From Escherichia coli (GTDB lineage Bacteria > Pseudomonadota > Gammaproteobacteria > Enterobacterales > Enterobacteriaceae): a stretch of 64,000 bases of DNA. Location: the NCBI RefSeq assembly GCF_029227855.1, contig NZ_CP074356.1, one strand, 5' to 3'. This document shows, piece by piece, positions 46,749 to 46,800 of the stretch; the first letter of the stretch is position 1; each line of letters starts with the position of its first letter. Both the position numbers and the translations under genes were made by a program. Below the pieces are notes generated by a model, which was not told the DNA's origin, searched no databases, and saw nothing but the letters and a program-made list of their open reading frames with translations.

Positions 46749-46751
46749 TGA

Positions 46752-46786
46752 TAAAAAAGCCGATGTCTGCCATGACATCGGCTTTT
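46752..46786. terminator. Bidirectional terminator between convergent flhE and argS
   Basis: A-run, hairpin gccgatgtc-tgccat-gacatcggc, T-run. Confidence 0.65.
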
Positions 46787-46800
46787 GCCGTATAACGCGA

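What the first reader, a model, noticed from the sequence alone, without database searches (positions are those of the whole stretch)
46749..46800. flhE and argS are only 52 bp apart; the K-12 yecT segment is absent
From memory, K-12 carries an extra ORF (yecT) between flhE and argS. Here the two convergent genes are separated only by a compact bidirectional terminator. This indicates a strain-specific indel junction at this position, which in other strains could harbour variable cargo.
Basis: partly seen in the sequence, partly recalled or inferred. Interest (0 to 1): 0.25.

Follow-up and report, generated by a model that had tools for sequence, protein, structure and literature searches.

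The report
Common yecT-less flhE–argS junction allele
The flagellar gene flhE and the arginyl-tRNA synthetase gene argS are separated here by 52 bases holding one shared terminator hairpin, which is an ordinary, old allele carried by a third of E. coli genomes, while K-12 and the other two thirds carry an extra AT-rich yecT segment.

Summary
flhE ends at 46748 and argS (minus strand) ends at 46801. The 52-bp spacer holds one 13-bp-stem hairpin (46755-46786, about -21 kcal/mol on either strand). K-12 MG1655 has 784 bp here, with yecV and yecT, at 39% GC.

The junction is not strain-specific. Of 5,426 complete E. coli genomes, 1,781 (33%) carry the compact spacer, including CFT073 and ST131. Another 3,642 (67%) carry the yecT segment. 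The only other variation seen is IS insertions and one odd 164-bp spacer.

The same compact hairpin occurs in E. albertii and in a cryptic Escherichia lineage. yecT occurs in E. whittamii and Escherichia sp. E1V33. The dimorphism is therefore old, and the compact form is not a recent deletion of the K-12 form.

In 68 of 80 Enterobacteriaceae species sampled (76 of them non-Escherichia), the site holds an MFS transporter plus GH88 hydrolase module, or part of it. Salmonella and Citrobacter add a PBP2 paralog. Four Enterobacter/Lelliottia species lost the module independently.

Best reading: a residual convergent-gene spacer whose hairpin is a canonical terminator for argS and a weaker one for flhBAE. 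This is ordinary accessory-gene variation and of low interest.

The parts
46356..46748 (+). flhE coding sequence, last gene of the flhBAE operon. The start follows RefSeq annotation of identical loci; the mechanical ORF starts at 46353. Stop TAA is at 46746-46748, followed in frame by TGA.
   Evidence: ORF list. Pfam FlhE PF06366, E = 3e-41. RefSeq annotation of compact-junction genomes.
46749..46800 (.). 52-bp spacer between the two convergent stop codons. This is the compact (yecT-less) allele.
   Evidence: Found at 95% identity or more in 1,781 of 5,426 complete E. coli genomes. The corresponding K-12 interval is 784 bp.
46755..46786 (.). Hairpin with a 13-bp stem (AAAAGCCGATGTC / GACATCGGCTTTT) and a 6-nt loop. 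On the minus strand it is followed by a run of six U in all (the argS terminator). On the plus strand it is preceded by A6 (46753-46758) and ends in only four U (46783-46786), making it a weaker flhBAE terminator.
   Evidence: Fold: -21.4 and -20.3 kcal/mol, 0 of 200 shuffles as stable. The terminator scan flags the minus strand only. No Rfam family matches. The stem sequence is unique in the window and occurs once per genome at the median.
46801..48534 (-). argS (arginine--tRNA ligase), 577 aa, stop TAA at 46801-46803.
   Evidence: ORF list. 100% amino-acid identity to K-12 ArgS by tblastn. RefSeq annotation under the match.

Best explanation
The 52-bp interval is the complete intergenic spacer between the convergent flhBAE operon and argS. 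Its single GC-rich hairpin, with an A-run on one side and a T-run on the other, acts as a shared Rho-independent terminator. It is canonical for argS (13-bp stem plus six U) and weaker for flhBAE (the same stem plus four U).

This is one of two old, common alleles of the junction in the genus Escherichia. The other allele, found in K-12, is a 784-bp AT-rich segment. That segment carries yecT (an LprI/DUF1311-family exported protein, activated by BglJ-RcsB and affected by H-NS) and the 14-codon yecV, each end having its own terminator.

Most other Enterobacteriaceae carry a roughly 3-kb MFS-transporter + GH88-hydrolase module at this site. The compact spacer is therefore most likely what remained after that module was lost in the Escherichia lineage, with yecT a later, Escherichia-restricted insertion present in only part of the genus.

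Shown here: the coordinates, the hairpin, the allele frequencies and the distribution across species. Inferred: actual termination in vivo, and the order of events (module loss, then yecT gain). I put the order of events at about 0.6.
For: Anatomy.

K-12 comparison: 784 bp with yecV and yecT, 39.4% GC against 53% in flhE and argS. YecT matches Pfam LprI PF07007, E = 1e-17. yecT is activated by BglJ-RcsB and raised in an hns stpA mutant (PMC3950696).

Frequencies: 1,781 genomes compact, 3,642 with the yecT segment, summing to 5,423 of 5,426. CFT073 has the same 52-bp gap.

Age of the compact allele: E. albertii (L007) and the roughly 8%-divergent 'E. coli' SCPM-O-B-8794 (L004) have 55-bp spacers with the identical stem GCCGATGTC/GACATCGGC. 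The K-12-type argS terminator has a different stem, GCCTGATC(G/A)G.

Age of the yecT allele: E. whittamii and Escherichia sp. E1V33 carry it. Their segments differ from K-12 by 8.3% and 5.7%, about the same as the flanking genes.

Family level: 68 of 80 species have MFS_2 and/or GH88 directly after flhE; 15 add a PBP2 paralog; 4 Enterobacter/Lelliottia species lack about 3.0 kb exactly from the flhE stop to the GH88 stop and keep the local argS terminator.

yecT is found at this site only in Escherichia. It is on no genuine plasmid: the four hits are chromosome-sized or a 5-kb record.
Against: No transcript 3'-end data were available, so termination in either direction is inferred from sequence alone. 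The flhE-side U-run is short (four), and in the ST131/BH100-type spacer it is broken (TGTT).

The order of events is not proven. yecT is as old as the split of E. coli from two sister species. The K-12 segment is bracketed by A-runs that could have mediated a deletion.

Similarities between the compact spacer and the two K-12 terminators are short (14/15 and 16/19) and only marginally above shuffles (8-9 of 300). They are of the generic 'A-run + GCC' terminator type, so they do not settle homology.

E. fergusonii and most named Escherichia species were not sampled. Each outgroup state rests on one genome.
Confidence: 0.8

Rival explanations
1. The compact junction is a derived deletion. Under this reading the ancestor of E. 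coli (and of the genus) had the yecT segment, and the lineage in the window lost it by recombination between the A-runs that bracket it.
For: The K-12 segment begins after ACAAAAAAA and ends with AATAAAAAA. Deletion between these runs would give a roughly 62-bp spacer collinear with the compact one. yecT segments in E. whittamii and E1V33 have diverged in step with their flanks, so yecT is old. One genome (HH97) shows that internal deletions of the yecT segment can occur.
Against: All 1,781 compact E. coli spacers match the window's spacer at 95% identity or more. In the three read (window, AZ153, BH100) the stem GCCGATGTC/GACATCGGC is that of E. albertii and L004, not the K-12-type GCCTGATCGG stem that such a deletion would leave. 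Compact junctions occur in the two most divergent Escherichia genomes sampled. The AT-rich composition (39% against 53%) and H-NS/BglJ-RcsB control fit acquired DNA (PMC3950696).
Confidence: 0.17
2. The hairpin marks an active integration hotspot, an attachment-like site into which different mobile cargo is inserted in different strains.
For: Cargo at this junction differs among genera: yecT, the MFS_2 + GH88 module, a PBP2 paralog, or nothing. IS1 and IS66-family elements sit in the yecT segment of some E. coli.
Against: There is no integrase, tRNA gene or long flanking repeat at the site. Across 5,426 E. coli genomes only two alleles plus IS insertions were seen, and every compact junction is intact. 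The IS elements are inside or beside yecT, not in the hairpin. The MFS_2 + GH88 module is syntenic across many genera at 84-100% protein identity, which points to vertical descent and loss rather than repeated insertion.
Confidence: 0.02
3. The spacer encodes something of its own: a small RNA, or the 15-residue peptide of the ORF at 46748-46795.
For: A mechanical ORF (MIKKPMSAMTSAFAV) runs through the hairpin (read). In K-12 a 14-residue protein, YecV, is annotated at the corresponding side of argS.
Against: No Rfam family matches at E <= 1. No promoter-like site was found in 46000-47500. The ORF is not in the YecV frame or sequence, and its codons are the two arms of the stem. The loop and tail differ among the window, ST131-type, L004 and E. 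albertii spacers, while the stem is conserved. That pattern fits selection on structure rather than on coding.
Confidence: 0.01

Closest known systems
E. coli K-12 MG1655 argS-yecV-yecT-flhE interval (b1876-b1878)
   Same: The flanking genes, their orientation and the stop-codon positions are the same. flhA is 97.7% identical and argS 97.1%. argS is followed by an A-run/GCC-stem intrinsic terminator in both.
   Different: K-12 has 784 bp instead of 52 bp, with yecT, yecV and two separate hairpins: the yecT terminator near flhE and the argS terminator. The argS-terminator stem sequence differs.
Compact flhE-argS junction of CFT073, ST131, BH100 and about 1,780 other sequenced E. coli
   Same: The gap is 52 bp with the same stem and the same gene ends. 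The window's spacer is identical to that of strain JNEC-KY178.
   Different: The AZ153 and BH100 spacers carry two substitutions, one in the loop (C to A) and one giving GGCTGTTG in place of GGCTTTTG, which shortens the flhE-side U-run. The ST131 genomes listed show the same 97.5% identity over the 81-bp probe. The window's flanks are not B2-like: flhA differs by 1.8% from K-12 and 3.9% from AZ153/BH100, and tap is intact.
Bidirectional Rho-independent terminators between convergent bacterial genes
   Same: One GC-rich hairpin flanked by an A-tract and a U-tract, placed within about 10-20 nt of both stop codons and able to terminate transcription from either side. This class is described in E. 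coli (bioRxiv 10.1101/2022.10.23.513370, found; also Ju et al. 2019, from my own knowledge).
   Different: Here the two sides are unequal (six U against four U). No transcript-end data exist for this particular spacer.
Salmonella/Citrobacter flhE-argS interval with a GH88 gene and a PBP2 paralog (probably STM1911 and STM1910 = PBP2SAL)
   Same: The junction and flanking genes are the same.
   Different: It carries 2-5 kb of cargo that is absent from Escherichia. The identification with STM1910/PBP2SAL rests on locus numbering from memory plus PMC9890219, not on a direct sequence comparison.
Compact flhE-argS junctions of Enterobacter sichuanensis, E. asburiae AEB30, E. vonholyi and Lelliottia nimipressuralis
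   Same: The stop-to-stop gap is about 55-60 bp with one bidirectional hairpin. These lack the same interval (flhE stop to GH88 stop) relative to close relatives.
   Different: The hairpin is different (AAACCCGGCGnTTGCCGGGTTT), which is the local argS/GH88 terminator. This is an independent event.

Membership tests
Rho-independent (intrinsic) terminator, bidirectional type | Stable GC-rich stem-loop immediately downstream of the stop codon(s) | tested here: met
   13-bp stem with a 6-nt loop, -21.4 and -20.3 kcal/mol, 0 of 200 shuffles as stable. It lies 6 nt after the flhE stop and 14 nt after the argS stop.
Rho-independent (intrinsic) terminator, bidirectional type | U-rich tract directly 3' of the stem on each transcribed strand | tested here: inconclusive
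   The minus (argS) strand has UUUUUU and passes the scan. The plus (flhE) strand has only UUUU followed by G and fails the scan's criterion of at least 5 T in 8.
Rho-independent (intrinsic) terminator, bidirectional type | Transcript 3' ends at the U-tract in vivo or in vitro | not testable with these tools
   No RNA-end data for a compact-allele strain were available.
yecT / LprI (PF07007) gene at the argS-flhE junction | An LprI-family ORF between argS and flhE | tested here: not met
   tblastn of K-12 YecT against the whole window gives a best E of 3.8. K-12 YecT itself matches PF07007 at 1e-17.
Genomic island / site-specific integration hotspot | Recombinase gene, tRNA or att-like duplicated target, and differing mobile cargo among strains of the species | tested here: not met
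   Only two alleles plus IS insertions were found in 5,426 genomes, and all compact junctions are intact. No integrase or tRNA lies next to the site. Similarity between the two ends of the K-12 segment is limited to A-run + GCC.
REP/BIME-type dispersed palindromic repeat | Many copies per genome of the same palindrome | tested here: not met
   The spacer has one place per genome at the median and two at most. The stem arm GCCGATGTC occurs once in the 64-kb window.
Known structured RNA family (Rfam) | Covariance-model match | tested here: not met
   No match at E <= 1 in 46300-47000 on either strand.

The most novel reading that the evidence does not exclude
The flhE-argS junction could be a long-lived gain/loss hotspot across Enterobacteriaceae, in which the shared terminator hairpin is itself the preferred boundary for insertion and deletion. 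On this reading the yecT-plus / yecT-minus dimorphism has been kept in Escherichia for longer than the species have existed, through selection on the LprI-type protein in some hosts. The denser allele-linked substitutions in the last 400 nt of flhE would be its footprint.
Probability: 0.08. Interest if true: 0.35.

Novelty: already known. Interest (0 to 1): 0.1.

Why it matters
It matters little for new biology. The junction is annotated in the same way in about 1,800 public genomes, and yecT is simply an accessory gene of E. coli.

Three practical points follow:
- K-12 is not the 'default' state here, so absence of yecT should not be scored as a strain-specific deletion.
- Strains with the compact allele lack one BglJ-RcsB/H-NS-controlled LprI-family protein. 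In these strains the flagellar export operon and an essential tRNA synthetase gene share one terminator, so read-through from either side becomes antisense to the other.
- The site is a clean example of lineage-specific gene flux at a conserved junction: module loss in Escherichia and some Enterobacter, and a PBP2 paralog in Salmonella and Citrobacter. It could serve as a simple lineage marker.

Tried and rejected
- **MAFFT, window against K-12.** It misplaced the left flank. I replaced it with blast and coordinate-based comparison.
- **Smith-Waterman, compact spacer against the K-12 segment.** The best match was 14/15 at the argS-side terminator. 8-9 of 300 shuffles scored as well, which is too weak to call homology. 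The 'A-run + GCC' motif also occurs in Enterobacter terminators.
- **Test for trans-species haplotypes.** Differences fixed between compact and yecT genomes are denser near the flhE stop. However, outgroup bases do not sort by allele, and only 3 + 3 E. coli sequences were used, so the result is inconclusive.
- **Rfam scan.** Nothing found.
- **Promoter scan.** Nothing found in the spacer.
- **YecT on plasmids.** Four hits, all chromosome-like or dubious records, so there is no evidence of plasmid carriage.
- **Phylogroup reference genomes.** UMN026 is not in the collection. My coordinate guess for SMS-3-5 missed the locus. Only CFT073 was confirmed as compact, so the phylogroup distribution beyond 'B2 plus at least one non-B2 lineage' was not established.
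- **Papers on PBP2SAL.** They confirm STM1910 = PBP2SAL but do not describe the locus. The identification of the Salmonella/Citrobacter PBP2 paralog therefore remains an inference.
- **Not run, to save shared compute.** A database-wide search for YecT or FlhE homologs, for example to place E. fergusonii.

Full report
**Observation**

The window carries flhB (43137-44285), flhA (ending at 46356) and flhE (46356-46748; the mechanical ORF starts at 46353) on the plus strand. argS (46801-48534) is on the minus strand. flhE ends with TAA at 46746-46748, and the argS stop codon occupies 46801-46803. The two convergent genes are therefore separated by exactly 52 bp, 46749-46800.

The spacer reads TGATAAAAAAGCCGATGTCTGCCATGACATCGGCTTTTGCCGTATAACGCGA. 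It contains a 13-bp stem with a 6-nt loop at 46755-46786. As RNA the hairpin folds at -21.4 kcal/mol on the plus strand and -20.3 on the minus strand. No shuffle out of 200 is as stable (the 71-nt context gives z = -4.3).

The consensus terminator scan flags the minus strand, with six T after the stem. It does not flag the plus strand, where only four T follow. There is no promoter-like site in 46000-47500. No Rfam family matches. No second copy of the stem occurs in the window.

**Comparison with K-12**

In MG1655 argS ends at 1961795 and flhE ends at 1962580. The 784 bp between them carry yecV (b4778, 14 codons, antisense just downstream of argS) and yecT (b1877, 162 aa).

The K-12 segment is 39.4% GC, against 53% for argS and flhE. 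YecT matches Pfam LprI (PF07007, E = 1e-17). [quoted passage not shown] This fits AT-rich acquired DNA.

The K-12 segment has two hairpins of its own. One is a long hairpin followed by U5 on the yecT strand, near flhE. The other is the argS terminator, GCCTGATCGG...CTGATCAGGC followed by U6.

A blast comparison of the whole window with K-12 shows alignment running up to about 10 nt past the flhE stop and resuming 3 nt before the argS stop. This leaves 39 unaligned nt in the window against 770 in K-12. No YecT-like sequence exists elsewhere in the window.

**How common each form is**

I searched all 5,426 complete RefSeq E. coli genomes.
- An 81-bp probe centred on the compact spacer finds 1,781 genomes, all at 95% identity or more and 80% coverage or more. 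Of these, 682 are at 99% or more.
- The 784-bp K-12 segment finds 3,642 genomes, 3,554 of them with 80% coverage or more.
- The two counts sum to 5,423.

The junction is therefore a two-allele polymorphism, roughly one third compact and two thirds yecT. It is not a strain-specific event.

CFT073 has the identical 52-bp gap, and so do genomes labelled ST131 and strain 83972. The window itself is 100% identical over 12 kb to strain JNEC-KY178. In this region it is not B2-like. Its flhA differs by 1.8% from K-12 but by 3.9% from AZ153 and BH100. It also has an intact tap, which is only a fragment in CFT073.

The AZ153/BH100 form of the spacer, whose 97.5% identity to the probe is shared by the ST131-labelled genomes, has two substitutions. 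One turns the flhE-side TTTT into TGTT.

Variation in E. coli beyond these two alleles is minor. About 150 genomes do not give a single joined match. The two inspected have IS1 inside yecT or two IS66-family elements between yecT and yecV. One genome, HH97, has a 164-bp spacer made of K-12-like ends, 55 nt of internal yecT and a C-rich stretch. This is either a deletion derivative or an assembly error.

**Other species**

A scan of one genome per species with FlhE returned 80 loci. I classified them by tblastn.

Within Escherichia:
- E. albertii (L007) and a genome labelled E. coli (L004) have 55-bp compact spacers. L004 is about 8% divergent in flhA and argS, so it belongs to a cryptic Escherichia lineage.
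- These two spacers have exactly the stem of the window (GCCGATGTC/GACATCGGC) and a slightly longer loop.
- E. whittamii (L006) and Escherichia sp. E1V33 (L005) have the yecT segment. Their segments differ from K-12 by 8.3% and 5.7%, about as much as the neighbouring genes do.

Both alleles are therefore at least as old as these species splits. The compact E. coli allele cannot be a recent deletion of the K-12 allele, because such a deletion would leave the K-12-type stem.

Outside Escherichia:
- 68 of the 80 species carry, directly after flhE, an MFS_2-family transporter and/or a GH88 glycoside hydrolase (Pfam E = 8e-51 and 9e-113). In most of them both genes are present, spanning about 3 kb.
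- 15 loci, from Salmonella and Citrobacter, add a class-B PBP paralog next to argS or towards it. This is probably the gene known as PBP2SAL (STM1910; PMC9890219). The identification is inferred from locus numbering, not tested.
- Four Enterobacter/Lelliottia species have gaps of roughly 55-60 bp. Alignment with close relatives shows they lack about 3.0 kb, from just after the flhE stop to the GH88 stop. They retain the local argS terminator, AAACCCGGCGnTTGCCGGGTTT.
- yecT occurs at this junction only in Escherichia and on no credible plasmid.

**Interpretation**

The simplest account is as follows. The family-wide ancestral state was flhE - MFS_2 - GH88 - argS, with a bidirectional terminator between GH88 and argS. 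The module was lost in the Escherichia lineage, and again independently in some Enterobacter and Lelliottia. This left flhE and argS tail to tail around one hairpin. An AT-rich yecT cassette with its own terminators then entered this spacer in part of the genus. E. coli has carried both forms since.

The distribution supports this order, with compact junctions in the two most divergent Escherichia genomes. So do the composition and H-NS-type regulation of yecT. I rate the order at about 0.6, for four reasons:
- Each outgroup is represented by a single genome.
- E. fergusonii was not sampled.
- The A-runs at both ends of the K-12 segment could equally have mediated an ancient deletion.
- The short similarities between the compact spacer and the K-12 hairpins are of the generic 'A-run + GCC' kind and barely exceed shuffles.

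Substitutions that separate compact from yecT genomes are denser in the last 400 nt of flhE (9) than in the remaining 2,070 nt of flhA (12). Outgroup states do not sort by allele, and only six E. coli sequences were compared. I take this as no more than ordinary linkage.

**Mechanism**

The hairpin has everything expected of the argS terminator. For flhBAE it offers the same stem but a four-U tail, or three in the ST131-type spacer. Termination on that side is therefore likely to be less efficient, and some flagellar transcripts may run antisense into argS. Shared terminators between convergent genes are a described class in E. coli (bioRxiv 10.1101/2022.10.23.513370). None of this was measured for this spacer; Term-seq or a reporter assay would settle it.

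**Verdict**

The interpretation as a strain-specific junction with variable cargo is only partly right. This is a common, old and already-annotated allele whose function is an ordinary shared terminator. Interest is low.

Noticed in passing
window 30825-30832: The IS1H element that sits upstream of flhD in K-12 MG1655 (768 bp) is absent from the window. The alignment blocks overlap by 8 nt here, consistent with the IS1 target duplication.
   Followed up: partly
window 1-7709: The first 7 kb (yedK to fliC side) is only 90.9% identical to K-12, against 97-98% elsewhere. 7071-7709 does not align at all. This is the variable central part of fliC, so the H antigen differs from K-12.
   Followed up: no
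window 54044-54048: K-12 has 133 extra bp between cmoB and torZ that the window lacks. This is probably a repetitive extragenic element; not examined.
   Followed up: no
L084 and L085, 3300-3351 (AZ153, BH100): This form of the compact spacer has GGCTGTTG instead of GGCTTTTG, plus a loop change. The stem shortens to 10 bp (-18.7 kcal/mol) and the flhE-side U-run is broken. Up to 1,099 genomes fall in the matching identity band, 95-99%.
   Followed up: partly
L091 3985-4148 (E. coli HH97, NZ_CP116409.1): A third spacer form, 164 bp: 32 nt identical to the K-12 flhE end and flhE-side start of the segment (18 of them in the spacer), 55 nt of internal yecT, then a C-rich stretch matching nothing. 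This is a deletion derivative or a consensus error in the assembly.
   Followed up: partly
L004 (NZ_JAATUR010000018.1, labelled E. coli SCPM-O-B-8794): flhA and argS are only 91.5-92.7% identical to the window, as distant as named sister species. The genome appears to belong to a cryptic Escherichia lineage rather than E. coli proper.
   Followed up: partly
L008-L083, the 3-4 kb after flhE: A conserved MFS_2 transporter + GH88 hydrolase pair lies between flhE and argS in most Enterobacteriaceae genera and is absent from all Escherichia sampled. Salmonella and Citrobacter add a PBP2 paralog, probably PBP2SAL/STM1910.
   Followed up: partly
window 46353-46748 versus L084-L088: flhE is much more polymorphic than its neighbours. 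It differs by 4.5-7.6% among E. coli genomes, where flhA differs by 1.3-4.7% and the adjacent 300 nt of argS by 0.3-2.0%. FlhE of E. albertii and L004 is one residue longer (NYRQ), and the window has tandem stops TAA TGA.
   Followed up: partly
L093 20286-20437 (CFT073): tap is reduced to a frameshifted fragment in CFT073. The window aligns with K-12 across the whole tap gene.
   Followed up: no
window 46748-46795: A 15-residue ORF (ATG overlapping the flhE stop; MIKKPMSAMTSAFAV) runs through both arms of the hairpin. There is no evidence that it is expressed, and it is unrelated in sequence to K-12 YecV.
   Followed up: no
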